Shown here: positions 553 through 53,763 of the stretch, piece by piece
Layout: each line of letters begins with the position of its first letter
Numbering within the stretch: position 1 is the first letter of the stretch
Assembly: GCA_951406725.2 (NCBI GenBank)
Contig: OX597826.1
Coordinates: 24,242,001 to 24,306,000, forward strand
Source of the DNA: Octopus vulgaris
Lineage: Eukaryota
Direction of reading: 5' to 3'
DNA: 64,000 nucleotides
Notes under the pieces: model-generated
Databases searched by the model: none
Told to the model about the DNA's origin: nothing
Seen by the model: only the letters and a program-made list of their open reading frames with translations
Made by a program: the position numbers and the translations under genes

Positions 553-2027
553 TGGTCCACCAAGGTTCTGGTCCACCAAGGTTCAGTCCTCAGCCCCCTC
601 CTATTTATCATAGTCCTCCAGGCAATAACGGAAGAATTCAAGACAGGATGCCCCTGGGAGCTCCTCTATGCTGATGACCTTGCTCTAATTGCTGAGTCAC
701 TATCAGAACTGGAGGAGAAGTTTCAGGTGTGGAAACAAGGATTAGAATCGAAGGGCCTTAGAATCAACCTAGCCAAAACCAAAGTCCTAATAAGTAGGAA
801 GGTGGACCAACCACAAACGACTTCAGGTAGATGGCCCTGCTCGATCTGTAAAAAAGGTGTAGGTAGAAACTCTATAAGGTGCACCAAGTGTAAGCTATGA
901 CACATAAGAGGTGCAGCAATGTCAAAAGTAGGCTAACTGGGAAGATAGTTTTCGTATGTGGCAGATGCTCAGGAGAAATAAACTCTGGAAACGTGCAGAG
1001 ACCAACTTCTACCACGTTCCAGGGAGACAAACTAGAAGTAGTTGATAGCTTCCGCTACCTAGGAGACCAAGTCAATAGCGGGGGTGGGTGTGCTGAAAGT
1101 GTAACTGCTAGAGTAAGAATAGCCTGGGCAAAGTTTAGAGAGCTCTTACCCCTGCTGGTGACAAAAGGCCTCTCGCTCAGAGTAAAAGGCAGACTGTATG
1201 ATGCATGTGTACGTACAGCCATGCTACATGGTAGTGAAACATGGGCCGTGACTGCTGAGGATATGCGTAAGCTCGCAAGAAATGAAGCCAGTATGCTCCG
1301 ATGGATGTGTAATGTCAGTGTTCATAATCGTCAGAGTGTAAGTACCTTGAGAGAAAAGTTGAACCTAAGAAGCGTCAGTTGTGGTGTGCAAGAGAGACGG
1401 CTGCGCTGGTATGGTCATATGACGAGAATGGCCGAAGATAGTTGTGTGCAAAAGTGCTACACCCTAGCAGTTGAGGGAACCTGTGGAAGAGGTAGACCCA
1501 GGAAAACCTGGGACGAAGTGGTGAAGCACGACCTTCGAACTTTAGGTCTCACCAAGGAAATGACTAGAGACCGAGACCTATGGAAGTATGCTGTGCGTGA
1601 GAAGACCCGGCAAGACTAGTCAGGCCATAACCCGTGGCCCCTACCTGGGACGTAGTCAGTCCACCTGTGCATACCTTCCTTCTTGTGACACTTGTGAAGA
1701 CCTGTTGAGGCAAGTGAAAATCGAATCAAATCAAATCAAAAAATCAAACAAAATCAAAATAGATGAACATCAATGGAATTTGTATCTTTGTGGTACCAGT
1801 GCCGGTGGAACACGAGTAAACCATCCGAACGTGGCCATAATCAGTGCCGCACCGACTGGCCTCCATGCTGTGGAGGCGTTAGGAAGGGCATCCAGCTGTA
1901 GAAACACTGCCAGATCTGACTGGCCTGGTGCAGCCTTCGGGCTCCCCAGACCCCAGTTGAACCGTCCAACCCATGCTAGCATGGAAAGCGGACGTTAAAT
2001 GATGATGATGATGATGATGATGATGAT
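553..2027 (+). mobile_element. 5'-truncated RTE-clade LINE (copy 1), inserted in a degraded hAT MITE
   Basis: RT motifs HQGSVLSPLLF, YADD and FRYLG; RTE C-terminus RRLRWYGH...GRGRPRKTW; 3' hairpin CCATGCTAGCATGG and (GAT)n tail; possible ATTATA TSD. Flanks (466-550, 2030-2155) resemble the MITE at 43578-43841. Confidence 0.95.
570..1619 (+). pseudogene. RTE reverse transcriptase C-terminal half, frameshifted near 898
   Basis: ORFs 529-900 and 897-1619 join to match the ORF at 51612-53690; CTATGGACA has become CTATGACA (1-nt deletion). Confidence 0.93.
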
Positions 2028-10151: not shown

Positions 10152-12070
10152 AGTTTCTGTCTCCCAAATTCACTCAAAAAACATTGGTTGTCCTGGGACT
10201 GTTGTATAAGACACTTTCCCAAGGTGCTATGCAATGGGACTGAACCCAAAACTGTGTGGTTCCAAAGCAAACTTCTTAAGCACACATCCATGACTGCAGT
10301 TTTCAAACATGAATTAGAATGAAATCTTGACGGCAGGTTTTTAATTTAGATTTCCTTAAAACCGGAAGAACTAGGGATAGTCTCAGGTCAGTTGATATCA
10401 AAAGGGTTGTAACAGTGCTTTTAATTTAATAATGCAGGCATGGCTATGTGGTAAGAAGTTTGCTTCCCAATCACATGGTTCCACTGTGTGGCACTTTATG
10501 CAAGTGTCTTTTACTATAGCCTCAGGCTGGCCAAAACCTTGTGAGTGGATTTGGTAAATGGAAACTGAAAGAAGTCTATATGTGTATTTACATCTATGTA
10601 TATATACAACAGACTTCTGTATATGAGCGAGTGCTGAAAAGTATCATGAACAACCTGGTTGGAGGCCCAACCTTTAGCTTTTCAAACATGTGGCTTCGGA
10701 TTCAGTCTTACTGCATGGCGCCTTGGGCAAGAGTCTTCTACTACACTACTGTAGCCCTGGGCCAACCAAATAGTGTGAATGGATACAGTAGACAGAAACT
10801 CTGTGTGTGTGTGTGTGTATTAAGGCAGTACTCCAGCATGGCTACAGTCAAATTACTGAACTAAAAGAATATATATATATATATATATATATATGCGTGT
10901 GTGTGTGTGTGTATGTATGTATAGAGTGTTAACACTATTAGGCTTGTTATATATAAACATATATACATATAAGTACACAGATTTATATAGAGATATCTGT
11001 AGATACATATAACTAAGTATATACAGATGCTAAAACACATGTACGAGCATATAGATATATTTATATATGTAGGCAAATATATTTACATTGAGTATAAAAA
11101 TACTGAATACTTAGAAGAGAATGCAGTTTTGTAACTCAACAGCTGTTTCTGGAAGCTCATAATAAATATAATGTATGTATGTATGTGTCCTTATCTTGGC
11201 ATCATGGTTGTTAACAAGTTGGTTGTGAATGAGCATCACCATCATAACAAGAGGCACTATTCATTTCCATTCTTCCATGACGAATATGTCTGGCCATGGG
11301 GAAACATTTGCTTGCTTAGAAACAGGTAAGGGCTGGTGACAGGAAAAGCACCCAGCTGTATAAATTCTGACCCATGCAAGCATGGAAAATTGAATGTTAA
11401 ATGATGTTAGTGTTTTCTTATATGTTATCCCTGCAAGGAACTTCATAGAAAAAGGTTTTACATTTTATTAATGGTGTTTCATCTTCACAGATATACTTCA
11501 GTGAAACATACACACAACCATTCAGTCATATATTTTACATCTGTTTTTTCCATGCTCGCATGGGTTAGATGAATACATATTACTGGTGCTTTGTTTTACA
11601 AGCAGATGCCTTTCCCATAATTTAACCCTTACCTGTTTTCCACCTGAGAGATGTTTCATTCTACTCACCTTAGAAAATACAGAGCTGCCTTAGAATTTGT
11701 TGGTAAGAAATGTCAGCAAAAATTGCCACCCATAGCACAGCAATTTTCATACAAAATGCTGAATGTAAGCACCCACATACATATGCACACATACAGGTAA
11801 CTGGCTTCATACAGTCTTCGTCTACCATTTTCAATTGCAGGAGGGCACTGGTCGTCACCATTATCATTACATGCATCTTTCCATGCTGGTGCAGGTTAAT
11901 TCGTTTGTTAGTTCTCTCTCTGCCATGAGAGGTACTAACATTGGTGCTTTTTAAGTGGCACCAACACTGGTGCTTTTTACATGGCACTAGTGCATATATA
12001 TTTTTATGAAGACTGACATTCATACAGTTTCTGTCTACCAATTCCATTCAATAGGTATTGGTTGGCTTAA

Positions 12071-15955: not shown

Positions 15956-16369
15956 TCATCATCATCATCATTTAGCGTCCGTTTTCCATGCTAGCATGGG
16001 TTGGACGGTTCAACTGGGGTCTGGGGAGCCCGAAGGCTGCACCAGGCCAGTCAGATCTGGCAGTGTTTCTACAGCTGGATGCCCTTCCTAACGCCAACCA
16101 CTCCGAGAGTGTAGTGGGTGATTTTATGTGCCACCGACACAGGTGCCAGACGAGGCTGGCGAACGGCCACGCTCGGATGGTGTTTTTATGTGCCACCGAC
16201 ACAGGTGCCAGATGAGGCTGGCGGACGGCCACGATCGGATGGTGTTTGTTACGTCCCCAAAGCACGGAGGCCAGTCTATGCGGTACTGGCTACGGCCACG
16301 TTCGGATGATTTTCTTGTGTGCCACCGGCACTGGTACCACAAAGATACAAATTCCATTGATGTTCATCT
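15952..16369 (-). mobile_element. RTE LINE 3'-UTR fragment (copy 1 subfamily) with ~3.5 units of the 60-nt array
   Basis: Reverse complement of 1760-2027 with additional array units; (ATC)n tail; (TA)n on both sides. Confidence 0.9.
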
Positions 16370-18603: not shown

Positions 18604-18637
<34 letters not shown>

Positions 18638-18647
18638 TATGTATATG

Positions 18648-18678
<31 letters not shown>

Positions 18679-18761
18679 GTATATGTATATATATATATAT
18701 GTATGTATATATATATGTATGTATATATATATGTATATATATATATATATATATGTATATA

Positions 18762-19262
18762 CTAGCAGCATTGCCCGGGTATGTAAGAGCCCCTGGAGCA
18801 GACATGATGCTCGCTGTGAATTTTGAAAAATTCCTGCCAATTTGAGAAAGATATTGTCGAAAATATGTCATCTTGAATTTGAATGCGATTTCCCAAAATG
18901 GCATGATTTTATCGATTTTTTTCGAATGGTAAGGTATTGCATGGAAAACTAATGTCAGAATTAAGTTTCTTAGGGTAACACTAAGCTTCACCATGAGTTT
19001 GGTGAAAATCGATTGCAAGTTGCGAAAACTACAACAGAAAATGTGTTGCAAATAAAAAGCTTAGATTCTCGACCCCCATGTCGAATTTATCAATTTTTTT
19101 CAGAACTGGGGAACTTTTCAAAATTTTCGCTGCGTTAGTTTTGAAGTATGACATTGGGCTATGTGTGTGTCAAGTTTCATCAGAATCGGTTGAAAGCCGT
19201 GGTCAGGGTGAGGGTACAACCTGACAGACACACAGACAGACAAACTGCCGTTTATATAGAGA
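18762..19262 (-). mobile_element. non-autonomous Helitron
   Basis: Minus strand runs from 5' TC to 3' CTAG, inserted between A and T; (GACA)n near the 5' end; AAGTTTCATCAGAATCGG motif typical of animal non-autonomous Helitrons. Confidence 0.85.
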
Positions 19263-19276
19263 TATATACATGTATG

Positions 19277-19313
<37 letters not shown>

Positions 19314-19534
19314 GTATGTATGTATATGTATGTATGTATATGTATGTATGTATATATATATATGTATATATATATATGTATGTATGTATGTATATATATA
19401 TATGTATATATATATATATGTATGTATGTATATATATGTATGTATGTATGTATGTATATATATATATATATATGTATGTATATATATATATATGTATGTA
19501 TGTATATATATATATGTATGTATACATATGTATG

Positions 19535-19567
<33 letters not shown>

Positions 19568-19723
19568 GCATGTATGTATATATATATATATGTATATATG
19601 CATGTATGTATATATGTATATATATATATGTATGTATATATATATATATGTGTATGTATATATATATATATATATATATGTGTATATGTATATATATATA
19701 TATATATGTGTGTGTATATATAT

Positions 19724-19772
<49 letters not shown>

Positions 19773-19773
19773 C

Positions 19774-19838
<65 letters not shown>

Positions 19839-19910
19839 AACTTACTTGGAGAAGAGAAATAGAGAAATATCGCGTGCATTCGGTCATATAATAATATAAT
19901 AAATAAATAA

Positions 19911-20750
19911 TATATATGCATATATACATACATATATGTACATACTTACATCTACATGTATATATACATGCATATATATATATATATATATGAGGACAGG
20001 ACACCACAAATAAACGTAGAACTCAACGAGAAACGAAAACATAAAATCAAATAAGGAAACGGACTTTTTTTAACAAGGAAACAGACTTTTTTTAAACAAC
20101 GAAAAAACAGAGTACAGGACAAACAATACAAGGAAAATTCCCCTTCATCAGCTGCCCCTGGTTCGACTCAATGCGTGTTTCGAAGGTAAGCGCAGAATAC
20201 GGCCAGGCTGAAGCAGTCCTTCCTGCAAAAGGAATTAAGTAGAAATTCTTTTGCAGAGGGGTAAAACAAGTGACAAGAACAGGGCGTAAAAGCAATACAA
20301 ATGAAGAAAAAACAGTAGAAAAAACAGTACAAATAAAGTACTGTTTTTTTTTCATTTGTATTGCTTTTACGCCCTGTTCTTGTCACTTGTTTTACCCCTC
20401 TGCAAAAGAATTTTACTTAATTCCCTTTGCAGGAAGGACTGCTTCGGCCTGGCCGTGTTCTGCCCTTACCTTCGAAACACGCATTGAGTCGAACCAGGGG
20501 CAGCTGATGAAGGGGAATTTTCCTTGTATTGTTTGTCCTGTACTCTGTTTTTTCGTTGTTTAAAAAAAAGTCTGTTTCCTTGTTTTTTCGTTGTTAAAAA
20601 AAGTCCGTTTCCTTGTTTGATTTTATGTTTTCGTTTCTCGTTGTGCCTACGTTTATTTGTGGTGTCCTGTACTTATCATATATATATATATGCATGTATA
20701 TATACATGTAGATGTAAGTATGTACATATATGTATGTATATATGCATATA
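19911..20750. repeat. ~840-bp near-perfect palindrome (fold-back element)
   Basis: Arms invert about ~20330 (CAGTAC AAATAAA GTACTG); the same ORF appears on both strands. Confidence 0.95.
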
Positions 20751-22134: not shown

Positions 22135-22168
<34 letters not shown>

Positions 22169-22178
22169 TATGTATATG

Positions 22179-22209
<31 letters not shown>

Positions 22210-22294
22210 GTATATGTATATATATATATATGTATGTATATATATATGTATGTATATATATATGTATATATATATATATATATATATGTATATA

Positions 22295-22797
22295 CTAGCA
22301 GCATTGCCCGGGTATGTAAGAGCCCCTGGAGCAGACATGATGCTCGCTGTGAATTTTGAAAAAATTCCTGCCAATTTGAGAAAGATATTGTCGAAAATAT
22401 GTCATCTTGAATTTGAATGCGATTTCCCAAAATGGCATGATTTTATCGATTTTTTTCGAATGGTAAGGTATTGCATGGAAAACTAATGTCAGAATTAAGT
22501 TTCTTAGGGTAACACTAAGCTTCACCATGAGTTTGGTGAAAATCGATTGCAAGTTGCGAAAACTACAACAGAAAATGTGTTGCAAATAAAAAGCTTAGAT
22601 TCTCGACCCCCATGTCGAATTTATCAATTTTTTTCAGAACTGGGGGAACTTTTCAAAATTTTCGCTGCGTTAGTTTTGAAGTATGACATTGGGCTATGTG
22701 TGTGTCAAGTTTCATCAGAATCGGTTGAAAGCCGTGGTCAGGGTGAGGGTACAACCTGACAGACACACAGACAGACAAACTGCCGTTTATATAGAGA
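22295..22797 (-). mobile_element. non-autonomous Helitron (duplicate copy)
   Basis: Same as 18762-19262 apart from two homopolymer indels. Confidence 0.85.
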
Positions 22798-22807
22798 TAT
22801 ATACATG

Positions 22808-22858
<51 letters not shown>

Positions 22859-23052
22859 GTATATATATGTATGTATGTATATGTATGTATGTATATGTAT
22901 GTATGTATATATATATATGTATATATATATATGTATGTATGTATGTATATATATATGTATATATATATATATGTATGTATGTATATATATGTATGTATGT
23001 ATGTATGTATATATATATATATATGTATGTATATATATATATGTATGTATGT

Positions 23053-23116
<64 letters not shown>

Positions 23117-23264
23117 GCATGTATGTATATATATATGTATATATGCATGTATGTATATATGTATATATATATATGTATGTATATATATATATATGTGTAT
23201 GTATATATATATATATATATATATGTGTATATGTATATATATATATGTGTGTGTGTATATATAT

Positions 23265-23317
<53 letters not shown>

Positions 23318-23320
23318 TAT

Positions 23321-23370
<50 letters not shown>

Positions 23371-23441
23371 ACTTACTTGGAGAAGAGAAATAGAGAAATA
23401 TCGCGTGCATTCGGTCATATAATAATATAATAAATAAATAA

Positions 23442-24278
23442 TATATATGCATATATACATACATATATGTACATACTTACATCTACATGTATATATACAT
23501 GCATATATATATATATATATATGAGGACAGGACACCACAAATAAACGTAGAACTCAACGAGAAACGAAAACATAAAATCAAATAAGGAAACGGACTTTTT
23601 TTAACAAGGAAACAGACTTTTTTTAAACAACGAAAAAACAGAGTACAGGACAAACAATACAAGGAAAATTCCCCTTCATCAGCTGCCCCTGGTTCGACTC
23701 AATGCGTGTTTCGAAGGTAAGCGCAGAATACGGCCAGGCTGAAGCAGTCCTTCCTGCAAAAGGAATTAAGTAGAAATTCTTTTGCAGAGGGGTAAAACAA
23801 GTGACAAGAACAGGGCGTAAAAGCAATACAAATGAAGAAAAAACAGTAGAAAAAACAGTACAAATAAAGTACTGTTTTTTTTTCATTTGTATTGCTTTTA
23901 CGCCCTGTTCTTGTCACTTGTTTTACCCCTCTGCAAAAGAATTTTACTTAATTCCCTTTGCAGGAAGGACTGCTTCGGCCTGGCCGTGTTCTGCCCTTAC
24001 CTTCGAAACACGCATTGAGTCGAACCAGGGGCAGCTGATGAAGGGGAATTTTCCTTGTATTGTTTGTCCTGTACTCTGTTTTTTCGTTGTTTAAAAAAAA
24101 GTCTGTTTCCTTGTTTTTTCGTTGTTAAAAAAAGTCCGTTTCCTTGTTTGATTTTATGTTTTCGTTTCTCGTTGTGCCTACGTTTATTTATGGTGTCCTG
24201 TACTCATATATATATATATGCATGTATATATACATGTAGATGTAAGTATGTACATATATGTATGTATATATGCATATA
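23442..24278. repeat. duplicate of the 840-bp palindrome
   Basis: Matches 19911-20750. Confidence 0.95.
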
Positions 24279-37744: not shown

Positions 37745-40523
37745 ATCATCATCATCATCATCATTATTTAGCATCCGCTTTCCATGCTAGCATGGGTTGG
37801 ACGGGTCAACTGGGGTCTGTGAAGCTGGAAGGCTTCGTCAGGCCCAGTCAGATCTGGCAGTGTTTCTACGGCTGGATGCCCTTCCTAACGCCAACCGCTC
37901 CGCGAGTGTAGTGGGTGTTTTTTACGTGCCACCTGCACAGGTGCCAGACAGAGCTGGTGAACGGCCACGAACGGATGGTGCTTTTACGTGTCACCGGCAC
38001 GGGGACAGGCGATGCTGGCAACGGACACGAACGGATGGTGCTTTTACGTGCCACCGACACGGGGCCAGAAAGAGCTGGCAAACGGCCACGAACGGACGGT
38101 GCTTTTACGTGTCACCGGCACGGGGGCCAGCCGTGGCTGGCAACGGACGCGAACGGATGGTGCTTTTACGTGCCACCGACACGGCCAGACAGAGCTGGCA
38201 AACGGCCACGAACGGATGGTGCTTTTACGTGCCACCGACACGGGGCCAGACAGAGCTGGCAAACGGCCACAAACGGACGGTGCTTTTACGTGTCACTGGC
38301 ACGGGGCCAGGCGAGGCTGGCAACGAACACGAACGGATGGTGCTTTTTCATGCCACCGACACGGGGGCCAGGCAGAGCTGGCAAACGGCCACAAGCGAAT
38401 GGTGCTTTTACGTATCACCGGCACGGGTGCCAGACGAGGCTGACAGCGGACACGAACGGATGGGTCACTTAACCCCTGCTTTCTGATATATGATTTGATT
38501 TTGATTGTTCTCACTGGTCTTGCCGGGTCTTCTCATGCACAGCATACTTCCATAGGTCTCGGTCTCTGGTCATTTCCTTGGTGTGACCTAGAGTTCGAAG
38601 GTCGTGCTTCACCACCTCGACCCAGGTTTTCCTGGGTCTACCTCTTCCACAGGTCCCCTCAACTGCCAGGGTGTGGCACTTTTTCACACACCTATCTTCA
38701 TCCATTCTCACCACATGACCATACCAGCGCAATCGTCTCTCTTGCACACAACATCTGATTCTTCTTAGGTCCAACTTTTCTCTCAAGGTACTTACACTCT
38801 GTCGACTATGAACACTGACATTACACATCCAACGGAGCATACTAGCTTCATTTCTCGCGAGCTTACGCATGTCCTCAGCAGTCACGGCCCATGTTTCACT
38901 GCCATGTAGCATGGCTGTTCGCACACATGCATCATACAGTCTGCCTTTTACTCTGAGCGAGAGGCCTTTAGTCACCAACAGAGGTAAGAGCTCCCTAAAC
39001 TTTGCCCAGGCTATTCTTACTCTAGCCGTTACACTTTCAGCACACCCGCCCCCACTACTGACTTGGTCACCAAGATAACGGAAGCTATCAACTACTTCTA
39101 GTTTTTCCCCCTGGAAAGTGACGGAAGTTGTTTTCTGCAGATTTTCAGAGGTTAATGCTCCCGAGCATCTTCCACATACAAAAACCATCTTCCTAGTTAG
39201 CCTTCCTATGACATTGCTGCACCTCTTATGTGTCCATAGCTTACACTTGGTGCATCTTATAGAGTTTCTACCTACACCTTTTCTACAGATCGAGCAGGGC
39301 CATCTACCTGAAGGCGTTTGTGATTTGTCTACCTTCCTACTTATTAGGACCATCTACCTGAAGGGATTTGTGGTTTGCTTGCCTTCCTACTTATTAGGAT
39401 TTTGGTTTTAGCTAGGTTGACTCTAAGGCCCTTCGATTCTAAACCATGCTTCCACACCTGAAACTTCTTCTCCAGTTCTGATAATGACTCAGCAATTAGA
39501 GCAAGGTCATCAGCATAGAGGAGCTCCCAGGGGCATCCTGTCTTGAATTCCTCCGTTATTGCCTGGAGGACTATGATAAATAGGAGGGGGCTGAGGACTG
39601 AGCCTTGGTGGACCCCTACCTCTACCCGGAATTCTTCACTGTACTCATTGCCAACCCTCACCTTACTAGCAGCGTCCCTGTACATGGCTTGCACAGCTCT
39701 CACTAACCATTCATCTATTCCTAGTTTCCTCATTGACCACCATATGAGGGATCGGGGGACCCTGTCGAAGGCTTTCTCCATGTCAACAAAAGCCAGGTAC
39801 AGGGGCTTATCTTTGGCTAGGTATTTCTCCTGCAGCTGCCTTACCAGGAATATAGCATCAGTGGTACTTTTTCCCTGGCACGAAACCAAACTGCATCTCA
39901 TCTAAACTAACTCTCTCTCTAATTAGTTGGCTTATGACCCTCTCTGTAACCTTCATCACCTGATCCAACAGCTTGATACCTCTGTAATTATTTGTATCTA
40001 GGGCATCACCTTTACCTTTGTAGCAGTTGACTATTATGCTGCTACACCAGTCATTGGGTATGACTCCTTCATGTATCACCTGATTAACTATACAGGTGAC
40101 TAGGCTATAGCCGACACTACCAGATATTTTGAGCATCTCTGCAGTGATACCTGATGGGCCTGGGGCTTTCCCTGTCTTCATGCTTCTAATTGCCTTAGCT
40201 ACTAAGGAACTATCAACCCTGATAGCTGGTCCCTCTGTTGGGTCAACGTTCGGCAGACTCTCTTTATCCCATTCATTTTCTTTATTCAGCAACCTTTCAT
40301 AGTGGCGTCTCCAAGCCTCTGTCTTTGCATCCTCGTTTAGCGCAAGTGAACCATCTTCCATGCGAACACACTTCTCTCCCACCACATCACAATTCTCTCT
40401 CACACACTGTCTTGCAACGCGAAACACCTCCAGTCTTTGGTCCTCACGGCGCAGAACATTGGCAAATTTTTTCTTATCTGCTTCCCCTCTGGCTAGATAG
40501 ACCTGTCTCCTAGCTTCCCTTTT
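37745..40523 (-). mobile_element. 5'-truncated RTE LINE (copy 2), disrupted
   Basis: RT is split across ORFs 39858-40523, 39344-39901 and 38511-39353 by a 1-nt insertion near 39870 and a 50-nt duplication near 39350; 9-unit UTR array; (GAT)n tail. Confidence 0.95.
37914..38461 (-). repeat. tandem array of nine ~60-nt GC-rich units in the RTE 3' UTR
   Basis: GGTGCTTTTACGTG(C/T)CACCG(A/G)CACG..GCCAG..CTGGC..ACGG(C/A)CACGAACGGAT repeated. Confidence 0.95.
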
Positions 40524-51077: not shown

Positions 51078-51445
51078 GGGTGTTTTTTACGTGCCACCTG
51101 CACAGGTGCCAGACAGGGCTGGCGAACGGCCATGAACGGATGGTGCTTTTACGTGTCACCGGCACGGGGCCAGGCGATGCTGGCAACGGACACGAACGGA
51201 TGGTGCTTTTACGTGCCACCGACACGGTTGCCAGACAGAGCTGGCAAACGGCCACGAACGGACGGTGCTTTTACGTGTCACCGGCACGGGGCCAGGCGAG
51301 GCTGGCAACGAACACGAACGGATGGTGCTTTTACGTGCCACCGACACGGGGCCAGGCAGAGCTGGCAAACGGCCACGAGCGAATGGTGCTTTTACGTATC
51401 ACCGGCACGGGTGCCAGACGAGGCTGACAGCGGACACGAACGGAT
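51078..51445 (-). repeat. tandem array of six ~60-nt units (ABABAB) in the RTE 3' UTR
   Basis: Direct reading. Confidence 0.95.
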
Positions 51446-51611
51446 GGGTCACTTAACCCCTGTTTTCTGATATATGATTTGATTTTGATTGTTCTCACTG
51501 GTCTTGCCGGGTCTTCTCACGCACAGCATACCTCCATAGATCTCGGTCTCTGGTCATTTCCTTGGTGAGACCTAGAGTTCGAAGGTCGTGCTTCACCACC
51601 TCGACCCAGGT

Positions 51612-53690
51612 TTACCTGGGTCTACCTCTTCCACAGGTCCCCTCAACTGCCAGGTTGTGGCACTTTTTCACACACCTATCTTCATCCATTCTCACCACAT
51701 GACCATACCAGCGCAATCGTCTCTCTTGCACACAACATCTGATTCCTCTTAGGTCCAACTTTTCTCTCAAGGTACTTACACTCTGTCGACTATGAACACT
51801 GACATTACACATCCAACGGAGCATACTAGCTTCATTTCTCGCGAGCTTACGCATGTCCTCAGCAGTCACGGCCCATGTTTCACTGCCATGTAGCATGGCT
51901 GTTCGTACACATGCATCATACAGTCTGCCTTTTACTCTGAGAGAGAGGCCTTTAGTCACCAACAGAGGTAAGAGCTCCCTAAACTTTGCCCAGGCTATTC
52001 TTACTCTAGCCGTTACACTTTCAGCACACCCGCCCCCACTACTGACTTGGTCACCAAGATAACGGAAGCTATCAACTACTTCTAGTTTTTCCCCCTGGAA
52101 AGTGACGGAAGTTGTTTTCTGCAGATTTTCAGAGGTTAATGCTCCCGAGCATCTGCCACATACAAAAACCATCTTCCTAGTTAGCCTTCCTATGACATTG
52201 CTGCACCTCTTATGTGTCCATAGCTTACACTTGGTGCATCTTATAGAGTTTCTACCTACACCTTTTCTACAGATCGAGCAGGGCCATCTACCTGAAGGCG
52301 TTTGTGATTTGTCTACCTTCCTACTTATTAGGACTTTGGTTTTAGCTAGGTTGACTCTAAGGCCCTTCGATTCTAAACCATGCTTCCACACCTGAAACTT
52401 CTTCTCCAGTTCTGATAATGACTCAGCAATTAGAGCAAGGTCATCAGCATAGAGGAGCTCCCAGGGGCATCCTGTCTTGAATTCCTCCGTTATTGCCTGG
52501 AGGACTATGATAAATAGGAGGGGGCTGAGGACTGAGCCTTGGTGGACCCCTACCTCTACCCGGAATTCTTCACTGTACTCATTGCCAACCCTCACCTTAC
52601 TAGCAGCGTCCCTGTACATGGCTTGCACAGCTCTCACTAACCATTCATCTATTCCTAGTTTCCTCATTGACCACCATATGAGGGATCGGGGGACCCTGTC
52701 GAAGGCTTTCTCCATGTCAACAAAAGCCAGGTACACGGGCTTATCTTTGGCTAGGTATTTCTCCTGCAGCTGCCTTACCAGGAATATAGCATCAGTGGTA
52801 CTTTTCCCTGGCACGAAACCAAACTGCATCTCATCTAAACTAACTCTCTCTCTAATTAGTTGGCTTATGACCCTCTCTGTAACCTTCATTACCTGATCCA
52901 ACAGCTTGATACCTCTGTAATTATTTGTATCTAGGGCATCACCTTTACCTTTGTAGCAGTTGACTATTATGCTGCTACACCAGTCATTGGGTATGACTCC
53001 TTCATGTATCACCTGATTAACTATACAGGTGACTAGGCTATAGCCGACACTACCAGATATTTTGAGCATCTCTGCAGTGATACCTGATGGGCCTGGGGCT
53101 TTCCCTGTCTTCATGCTTCTAATTGCCTTAGCTACTAAGGAACTATCAACCCTGATAGCTGGTCCCTCTGTTGGGTCAACGTTCGGCAGACTCTCTTTAT
53201 CCCATTCATTTTCTTTATTCAGCAACCTTTCGTAGTGGCGTCTCCAAGCCTCTGTCTTTGCATCCTCGTTTAGCGCAAGTGAACCATCTTCCATGCGAAC
53301 ACACTTCTCTCCCACCGCATCACAATTCTCTCTCACACACTGTCTTGCAACGCGAAACACCTCCAGTCTTTGGTCCTCACGGCGCAGAACATTGGCAAAT
53401 TTTTTCTTATCTGCTTCCCCTCTGGCTAGATAGACCTGTCTCCTAGCTTCCCTTTTAGCAGTCTGATACAATTCCCTGCTACCACCATTCTTCCAGTGCT
53501 TCCAAGTCTGTCTCTTTTCTCTAATAGCCCTGTTCCACCACCACGTTACCTTGGGACGAGAGGGGACTTTGCACCAGCCACAGATCTGGTCAGTGGCTCT
53601 CAGCAGGTTGTCCCTTAGAAACGTCCAGTTGTCCTCTACCCCATGTGATACTCTATCCCCTTCTACTTCGTCAAAGGCTTCAAGTAACAT
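51612..53690 (-). pseudogene. RTE ORF remnant: 692 aa, full RT with inserted PHD finger, endonuclease missing, premature stop
   Basis: GKAPGPSGI, NYRGIKLL, QFGF, FVDMEKAFDRV, GVHQGSVLSP, YADD and FRYLG motifs; AAA>TAA at ~51612 relative to copy 2. Confidence 0.95.
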
Positions 53691-53706
53691 GTCTCTAAAT
53701 CTCTGT

Positions 53707-53763
<57 letters not shown>

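What the first reader, a model, noticed from the sequence alone, without database searches (positions are those of the whole stretch)
37914..38461. Variable-copy, A/B-alternating structured RNA array in the 3' UTR of an RTE retrotransposon
Seen: ~60-nt units number 9 here (ABABAABAB), 6 at 51078-51445 (ABABAB), ~3.5 at 16118-16335 and ~1.5 at 1795-1870, while the ORFs of copies 2 and 3 are nearly identical. The sense-strand unit is AUCCGUUCGUG(G/U)CCGUU-GCCAG-loop-CUGGC-CC-CGUG(U/C)C-GGU-G(G/A)CACG-UAAAA-GCACC. The GCCAG/CUGGC stem is mostly kept while its loop varies. GGCACG is usually followed in the next unit by CGUGCC and GACACG by CGUGUC, so pairing is perfect between neighbouring units but mismatched within B units. 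The three internal exceptions are all G-U compatible on the sense strand. Loop GGUG could also pair with downstream CACC across an A-rich linker (H-type pseudoknot), and the CCUCG loop recalls HDV L3, though I cannot fit a canonical ribozyme. Inference: a multimerised, possibly switchable RNA module (RT/RNP binding sites, nuclease block, or an unknown self-cleaving motif) next to an RT. Caveat: transition and CpG mutation bias also produces G-U compatible changes.
Basis: partly seen in the sequence, partly recalled or inferred. Interest (0 to 1): 0.85.

Follow-up and report, generated by a model that had tools for sequence, protein, structure and literature searches.

The report
Heritable hairpin array in LINE tail
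A very abundant jumping gene in this animal genome carries, just before its 3' end, a block of roughly 60-base repeats whose order is inherited by subfamily and whose predicted stems change more slowly than their loops, so it is likely a selected RNA element that would help the element's own protein handle its RNA; no ribozyme or switch is shown.

Summary
The array is real: nine ~61-nt units in the 3' UTR of a 5'-truncated RTE-type LINE (minus strand). The family's tail motif has 61,072 exact copies in this genome. Unit order is a subfamily trait: 23 of 40 complete arrays share it, and long private arrays (12-17 units) likely grew after insertion. Each unit has a GCCAG/CUGGC hairpin and a 15-nt self-complementary core. 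Between source lineages, stem columns change about 2.5-fold less than unpaired ones; a conservative count is not significant. Covariation does not exceed shuffles and folding energy is ordinary (z -0.5). The A:B complementarity exists and is the predicted fold in this subfamily, but it rests on two mutations; two other lineages carry both within one unit. There is no Rfam match, no fit to my ribozyme descriptors and no truncation spike. Best reading: a constrained, slippage-amplified RNA module beside the conserved terminal stem-loop, like the SVA/LAVA VNTR but in an autonomous LINE. Function untested.

The parts
38511..40522 (-). 5'-truncated, broken ORF of an RTE-type LINE (RT and PHD-like finger); 1-nt insertion near 39872, 50-nt duplication at 39296-39399, stop codon at 38513-38511
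38462..38510 (-). proximal 3' UTR specific to the nine-unit subfamily
37914..38461 (-). nine-unit array, sense order a b A B B A B A Z; units start at 38461, 38400, 38338, 38278, 38217, 38158, 38097, 38036, 37976. Unit = leader, GCCAG/CUGGC hairpin, self-complementary core CGUG(C/U)CG-G-UG(G/A)CACG, UAAAA linker, CACC
37893..37913 (-). linker with a short CACUC/GAGUG-type hairpin whose loop marks subfamilies
37871..37892 (-). conserved tail motif GGCGUUAGGAAGGGCAUCCAGC; a 19-nt part has 61,072 exact copies in G000, and a degenerate form occurs in repeats in metagenome contigs
37772..37803 (-). terminal stem-loop (two stems, A-rich 3' bulge), likely the main RT-recognition signal; same predicted shape with different sequence in metagenome relatives
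37747..37764 (-). (AUG)n microsatellite 3' end
51079..51445 (-). six-unit array (a b A B A Z) of the same subfamily, behind an ORF at about 51495-53711 with one internal stop
16117..16333 (-). array of a second, younger subfamily (half unit plus three units) in a copy truncated at about 16370; its two 3' units carry the UGUG/CACA double change
1795..1874 (+). remnant array of the second subfamily, shortened by an internal deletion that joins it to the tail

Best explanation
This is a subfamily-inherited tandem array in the 3' UTR of an RTE-type LINE whose units are predicted to fold as a hairpin plus a self-complementary core and are likely kept by selection as an accessory RNA element that would help the element's single protein bind or compact its own RNA next to the terminal stem-loop. 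Shown: position, inheritance of unit order through retrotransposition, private variants repeated within long arrays, and slower change in stem columns by tree-based counts. Inferred: that the constraint acts on RNA pairing; that long private arrays grew after insertion by DNA-level slippage or unequal exchange in blocks of 2-6 units; that the core can pair inside a unit or as a 14-bp duplex between units; that about two cores are needed and further copies are mostly neutral; that the partner is the element's own ORF protein. The A/B pattern is then a by-product: one mutation in each arm of a palindrome, fixed in neighbouring units and amplified as a dimer.
For: Same order with position-specific variants at dispersed loci: 23 of 40 complete arrays abABBABAZ, 5 share an 11-unit form, 2 a 6-unit form. 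Variants private to one locus repeat at periods of 2-6 units in L029, L441, L443, L449. Source-lineage versus private changes, stems against unpaired columns, CpG changes removed: 35:131 versus 104:150, OR 0.39, p 2e-5, 0 of 61 shifted masks as low (36 types); 23:87 versus 92:155, OR 0.45, p 0.002 (27 types, overlapping data). Against 16 ORF-bearing copies of other lineages: fourfold sites differ at 255 of 1011, second codon positions 173 of 2632, last-unit stems 44 of 416 (14 from one deleted copy), leader 44 of 236. 101 of 106 complete 3' UTRs hold two or more cores. Double changes that keep pairing exist at two core pairs. The UGUG/CACA change keeps pairing but destroys the ACGUG word in a young abundant subfamily.
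Against: No covariation above shuffles on 28 representative units (score 0.096 versus 0.093); the first hairpin has no double-sided change. Folding z-score -0.52. Counting distinct alleles instead of tree steps gives OR 0.60, p 0.16. The coincidence of the C-to-U and G-to-A core changes across 13 lineages gives P 0.10 at the threshold set in the script. Similar arrays sit on ORFs that differ at fourfold sites by about 15% or 27% from the window copy, so 3' UTRs move between lineages and that comparison overstates constraint. The unit model finds nothing in 100 of 120 metagenome loci with the same tail motif, so relatives move without it. Stems were chosen on these same sequences. No protein binding, probing or strand-resolved RNA data.
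Confidence: 0.5

Rival explanations
1. The conserved columns are sequence motifs read by a host protein, at DNA level (enhancer or antisense promoter array, as in mouse L1 monomers) or on single-stranded RNA; the inverted repeats reflect a dimeric factor rather than RNA pairing.
For: Both arms are conserved in sequence with almost no compensatory change; the unpaired U after the core, the A-run and a leader CGUG are as conserved as stems. CACGUA is the reverse complement of the HIF-type word TACGTG (recalled, no call). Monomer number affects mouse L1 promoter activity (PMC9022269, abstract).
Against: One young subfamily changed CGUG/CACG to UGUG/CACA in most of its units, keeping pairing and losing the word. 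Spacing between the hairpin arms varies by about 5 nt between unit types. The array lies 3' of the ORF, where it cannot act as the sense promoter.
Confidence: 0.2
2. An essentially neutral minisatellite: a palindrome-rich unit that slips and recombines easily and rides along in source elements; apparent stem conservation comes from conversion between units, 3' UTR swapping and my ascertainment.
For: No covariation, ordinary folding energy, non-significant allele-count test, growth after insertion, a recurrent 15-nt deletion between short direct repeats (11 of 162 last units), absence from relatives with the same tail, mosaic ORF/UTR history.
Against: Change is concentrated in loops and linkers in two tree-based tests, with no shifted mask as extreme. 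Long-loop and short-loop units have diverged strongly yet keep both stems; templated repair should yield many double changes in the first hairpin and none is seen. 101 of 106 complete UTRs keep at least two cores.
Confidence: 0.2
3. A selected conformational switch or dimerisation device: cores alternate between intra-unit hairpin/pseudoknot and inter-unit or inter-molecular duplex, with A/B alternation selected to force heterotypic pairing.
For: Duplex energies A:B -26.1, B:B -22.8, A:A -13.9 kcal/mol; with long-range pairing allowed, 6 of 9 cores in the window array are predicted paired to another unit at 0.96 or more and intra-unit core pairing is near 0. The three architectures shared by several loci have no A-A junction.
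Against: It rests on two mutations in one subfamily; two other lineages have both changes within one unit. The unmutated core pairs with itself better still (-28.2), so alternation adds nothing. Any palindrome repeated in tandem gives this prediction. Pseudoknots were not modelled.
Confidence: 0.07
4. Each unit or unit junction is a self-cleaving ribozyme (HDV-like or a new class).
For: A partial HDV-like nesting can be drawn: outer G(A/G)CACG/CGUG(U/C)C helix, inner hairpin, then GG.
Against: No Rfam hit at gathering score and only an E 3.5 chance hit over the array; no fit to my HDV-like (strict or relaxed) or twister descriptors on either strand, and no hammerhead core in the array. 5' ends of 206 mapped partial units are spread over 6-57 retained bases, at most 14 at one position. 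Cutting between ORF and tail would separate the RT message from its priming end (inference).
Confidence: 0.03

Closest known systems
SVA/LAVA VNTR of hominoid composite retrotransposons (PMC4432496; abstract and first part of Discussion read)
   Same: GC-rich repeat units inside a non-LTR retroelement, subfamily-specific unit order, higher-order arrays, remodelling at DNA level; in LAVA the VNTR affects mobilisation.
   Different: Here the carrier is an autonomous-type single-ORF LINE, the array is in the 3' UTR next to the tail, units are 60-67 nt with two conserved inverted repeats, and no sequence relationship is claimed or tested.
Mouse L1 5' UTR monomer arrays (PMC9022269; abstract read)
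   Same: Tandem units in an autonomous LINE, subfamily-specific, with more units in younger subfamilies (only a weak, sampling-biased trend here).
   Different: Those are 5' promoter units acting as DNA; these are ~60-nt 3' units with predicted RNA stems.
RTE-clade LINEs, including octopus RTE-2_OV (PMC9115989, passages; PMC2887409, abstract; PMC5786205, parts 1-3 of 5)
   Same: Single ORF with APE endonuclease and RT (many of the 120 listed relatives, about 1050 aa), frequent 5' truncation, microsatellite 3' end.
   Different: Described RTE 3' UTRs are very short or mostly microsatellite; RTE-2_OV has a C2H2 finger and a mostly microsatellite 3' UTR. This family has a PHD-like finger after the RT domain and a 0.4-1.2 kb structured 3' UTR. 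No sequence comparison with RTE-2_OV was possible.
HDV-like and twister ribozymes of non-LTR elements (PMC5786205 passage; PMC8501958 passages)
   Same: Structured RNA carried by RTE-clade elements; the words UGCCGGU and GUAAA also occur in the S. mansoni twister.
   Different: Those act at the 5' end and are single; the array lacks the twister L4 and GAGGG strands and the HDV P2 and J4/2 elements.

Membership tests
RTE-clade non-LTR retrotransposon | RT domain of non-LTR type | tested here: met
   RVT_1 E 1.7e-31
RTE-clade non-LTR retrotransposon | single ORF with N-terminal APE endonuclease | tested here: inconclusive
   window copies are 5'-truncated; close relatives (47-60% identity) of about 1050 aa carry PF03372 plus RT; no full-length copy examined in G000
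RTE-clade non-LTR retrotransposon | 3' end in short tandem repeats rather than poly(A) | tested here: met
   (AUG)n in all four window copies
RTE-clade non-LTR retrotransposon | placement in the RTE clade by RT phylogeny with named references | not tested
   no named reference sequences at hand; assignment rests on architecture and recalled motifs
Subfamily-structured retrotransposon VNTR (SVA/LAVA-like, as a working type) | unit order conserved within and different between subfamilies | tested here: met
Subfamily-structured retrotransposon VNTR (SVA/LAVA-like, as a working type) | remodelling after insertion at DNA level | tested here: met
   locus-private variants repeated in duplicated units at four loci; orthologous alleles not compared
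Subfamily-structured retrotransposon VNTR (SVA/LAVA-like, as a working type) | effect on mobilisation | not testable with these tools
   needs a retrotransposition assay
SVA/LAVA family proper | non-autonomous composite with Alu-like and SINE-R or LA domains | tested here: not met
   carrier has its own RT ORF
HDV-like ribozyme | nested double pseudoknot with P1, P2, 3-bp P3, conserved L3 and catalytic C in J4/2 | tested here: not met
   0 matches to my descriptor, strict or relaxed, three arrays, both strands (descriptor recalled, not run on a positive control); no Rfam hit
Twister ribozyme | P4-L4 core CCG-GUCCCAAGC (table in PMC8501958) | tested here: not met
   0 matches at up to 2 mismatches
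Hammerhead ribozyme | CUGANGA core, stem II, GAAA | tested here: not met
   none in the array; one subfamily-specific CUGACGA in the tail, absent from the second subfamily
H-type pseudoknot | loop of stem 1 pairs with a downstream strand, supported by covariation | tested here: inconclusive
   GGUG/CACC pairable in 86.6% of cells, no double-sided change; 4 of 4 pairs possible in 21 of 27 parsed types; energy not modelled

The most novel reading that the evidence does not exclude
The 15-nt palindromic core is a multivalent RNA-RNA pairing site that dimerises or condenses LINE RNA, the way retroviral dimer-initiation palindromes do (recalled), which would also explain the frequent exchange of 3' UTRs between ORF lineages and make unit number a tunable setting for retrotransposition.
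Probability: 0.12. Interest if true: 0.8.

Novelty: new variant of a known kind. Interest (0 to 1): 0.45.

Why it matters
Lupan et al. 2015 (PMC4432496) called primate VNTR composites the only non-LTR elements they knew with complex internal tandem repeats. This is an apparently independent case in an autonomous-type LINE with tens of thousands of copies, and it comes with a natural series of 2-17 cores, stem variants and deletions for testing what a LINE 3' UTR needs beyond its terminal stem-loop. RTE UTRs are being optimised for gene insertion (PMC13708176, passages), so an accessory 3' module could be of practical use. If it proves neutral, it is still a dispersed minisatellite family that confounds mapping and repeat annotation.

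Tried and rejected
Rfam at gathering score and at E up to 10: nothing relevant. First version of the within/between test counted shared subfamily variants as neutral and gave OR 1.02, p 0.93; replaced by a singleton-only, CpG-free version, with the conservative version non-significant. Idea that the unit is a duplicate of part of the tail: p 0.03-0.74 over 28 comparisons, not supported. Unit homologues outside this genome: none in viral contigs, best E 1.2 by profile over 120 metagenome loci and E 4.9 by covariance model over 100 of them. One search used a stem filter that favours conservation; one search repeats it without the filter. Alignment A1 held one wrong row and was redone as A2. One search's lineage table had a pattern error, corrected. 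The search for a full-length copy among fetched loci failed on a program option and was not repeated. Contigs of four runs (two labelled as other organisms, two guessed RNA) hold the family and joints that skip whole units, but cannot show strand, ends or expression. A bacterial promoter scan was uninformative. Earlier scan notes: none. Ten literature searches returned no description of this array; Repbase/Dfam entries, subscription papers and supplements were not seen and may hold the consensus.

Full report
Observation. The region is the 3' UTR of a 5'-truncated LINE on the minus strand: ORF remnant 40522-38511 with RVT_1 and a weak PHD match, 49 nt of proximal UTR, nine units (38461-37914), a linker, a conserved motif, a terminal stem-loop and (AUG)n. 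Copies 2 and 3 are 99.3% identical over the ORF; copies 1 and 16117 belong to another subfamily. The genome is 2.8 Gb in 227 contigs; from size and microsatellite content I infer an octopus-like animal (recalled, not shown by a call).

Abundance and inheritance. A 19-nt tail word has 61,072 exact matches; three linker variants have 8,945, 14,305 and 3,747. Among 40 distinct complete arrays of the window's subfamily, 23 have the order abABBABAZ, 3 more have nine units in another order, 5 share an 11-unit order, 2 have six units and 7 have 8-17 units in orders seen once. This sample is biased: 30 loci were best hits to the nine-unit copy and 11 were picked as long. Position-specific variants recur across chromosomes, so order is copied by retrotransposition. 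In the long single arrays, variants seen at no other locus repeat at periods of 2-6 units, which points to growth after insertion, as reported for SVA/LAVA (PMC4432496, abstract and Discussion part 1). Other subfamilies have their own unit types and orders; 101 of 106 complete 3' UTRs carry at least two cores. Arrays of 10 and 17 units occur in two of the three least diverged lineages, but one of 12 occurs in an older one.

Anatomy. Across 27-36 unit types the conserved parts are a GCCAG/CUGGC hairpin whose loop varies in sequence and by about 5 nt in length, a quasi-palindrome CGUG(C/U)CG-G-UG(G/A)CACG, an invariant U, an A-run and CACC. RNAalifold gives the two hairpins with a covariation term near zero. 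GGUG in the core could pair with CACC to make a compact H-type pseudoknot, but no double-sided change supports it.

Is it constrained? Excluding CpG changes, I compared changes between unit types with variants private to one copy. Stems against unpaired columns gave OR 0.39 (35:131 versus 104:150, p 2e-5; 36 types covering most of 825 units) and OR 0.45 (p 0.002; leader only OR 0.50, p 0.038; 27 types; overlapping data), with no circularly shifted mask as low (0 of 61, 0 of 60). A count of distinct alleles, which ignores the tree and saturates, gave OR 0.60, p 0.16. An earlier version that mixed shared and private variants gave no signal. Against 16 ORF-bearing copies of other lineages, fourfold sites differed at 25%, second positions at 6.6%, last-unit stems at 10.6% and the leader at 18.6%; these comparisons share one reference and are weakened by ORF/UTR mosaicism. 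Constraint is likely, but pairing is not proven: covariation on 28 real units is at shuffle level (220 of 500) and the array's folding z-score is -0.52.

The A/B pattern. A carries a G-to-A change in the 3' arm and B a C-to-U change in the 5' arm. A:B cores form a predicted 14-bp duplex (-26.1 kcal/mol versus -13.9 for A:A, -22.8 for B:B and -28.2 for the unmutated core with itself), and the nested model prefers inter-unit pairing in long arrays. The same two changes occur together inside one unit in two other lineages, which suggests the pair matters but not its register. The lineage-level coincidence is not significant at the scripted threshold (P 0.10, 13 lineages). Private transitions lean G-U-compatible on the sense strand (85 versus 65), so G-U counts are weak evidence. 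A selected switch is not supported.

Ribozyme. No Rfam family and no fit to my HDV-like or twister descriptors, and no hammerhead core in the array (HDV and hammerhead descriptors recalled, no positive control). Of 272 candidate truncated copies, 206 had a mappable partial unit, with 5' ends spread over the unit and no dominant site (some rows are indels rather than true ends).

Context. The tail motif also occurs in short repeats in metagenome contigs (120 loci). In 38 of them the 3' end could be read, and 7 of the 8 shown fold into the same two-stem terminal hairpin with different sequence. That hairpin is therefore the better candidate for the primary RT-recognition signal (inference). The unit model finds nothing in 100 of these 120 loci, so the array is a lineage-specific addition as far as these collections reach. 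About 1,964 related proteins were found, many near 1050 aa with endonuclease, RT and PHD matches.

Mechanism and comparison. I commit to an accessory RNA element that helps the element's protein bind or compact its RNA, amplified by slippage, with copy number above about two mostly neutral (0.5). Rivals are a protein-read sequence array (0.2), a neutral minisatellite (0.2), a switch or dimer device (0.07) and a ribozyme (0.03). It works most like the SVA/LAVA VNTR and mouse L1 monomer arrays (PMC9022269, abstract) without being a member of either. Published RTE 3' UTRs are short or microsatellite (PMC2887409 abstract; PMC9115989 passages). Ten searches and reading of PMC5786205 (parts 1-3 of 5), PMC13282606 (part 1 of 3), PMC4758252, PMC8501958 and PMC13708176 (passages) found no account of this array; repeat databases and supplements were not seen. 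Verdict: real, probably constrained, function unproven; a new variant of a known kind, interest 0.45.

Noticed in passing
window 37772-37803 (-); L231-L350: The terminal two-stem hairpin with an A-rich bulge keeps its predicted shape with changed sequence in metagenome repeats; neither it nor the upstream tail motif has an Rfam model. A better-supported RNA structure than the array.
   Followed up: partly
L231-L350: Most hits are about 230-nt non-coding repeats that share the tail motif and start at nearly the same base, suggesting a SINE-like derivative or a processed 5' end.
   Followed up: no
window 52011-52145 (-), approximate; P0001-P0120: A PHD-like finger follows the RT domain in this LINE family and in many relatives found by the protein search.
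   Followed up: partly
L049, L063, L076, L082, L086, L101, L138, L159, L160, L205, L361, L385, L409: A recurrent 15-nt deletion between two short direct repeats removes the 5' half of the core in several subfamily backgrounds, more often in the last unit (11 of 162) than in internal units (2 of 125).
   Followed up: partly
L119, L147 versus L058, L116, L124; L358, L391: Similar 3' arrays sit on ORFs from different branches, indicating exchange of 3' UTRs between source lineages.
   Followed up: partly
L008, L062, L116 (second elements): Other proximal 3' UTR modules are also duplicated in some subfamilies, so duplication is not limited to the 60-nt unit.
   Followed up: no
window 18604-20618 and 22135-24149: The same series of tandem repeats appears twice about 3.5 kb apart, suggesting a local duplication or an assembly repeat.
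   Followed up: no
window 7381, 11943-11995, 33941, 49846, 58457: Further decayed fragments of the unit or tail.
   Followed up: no
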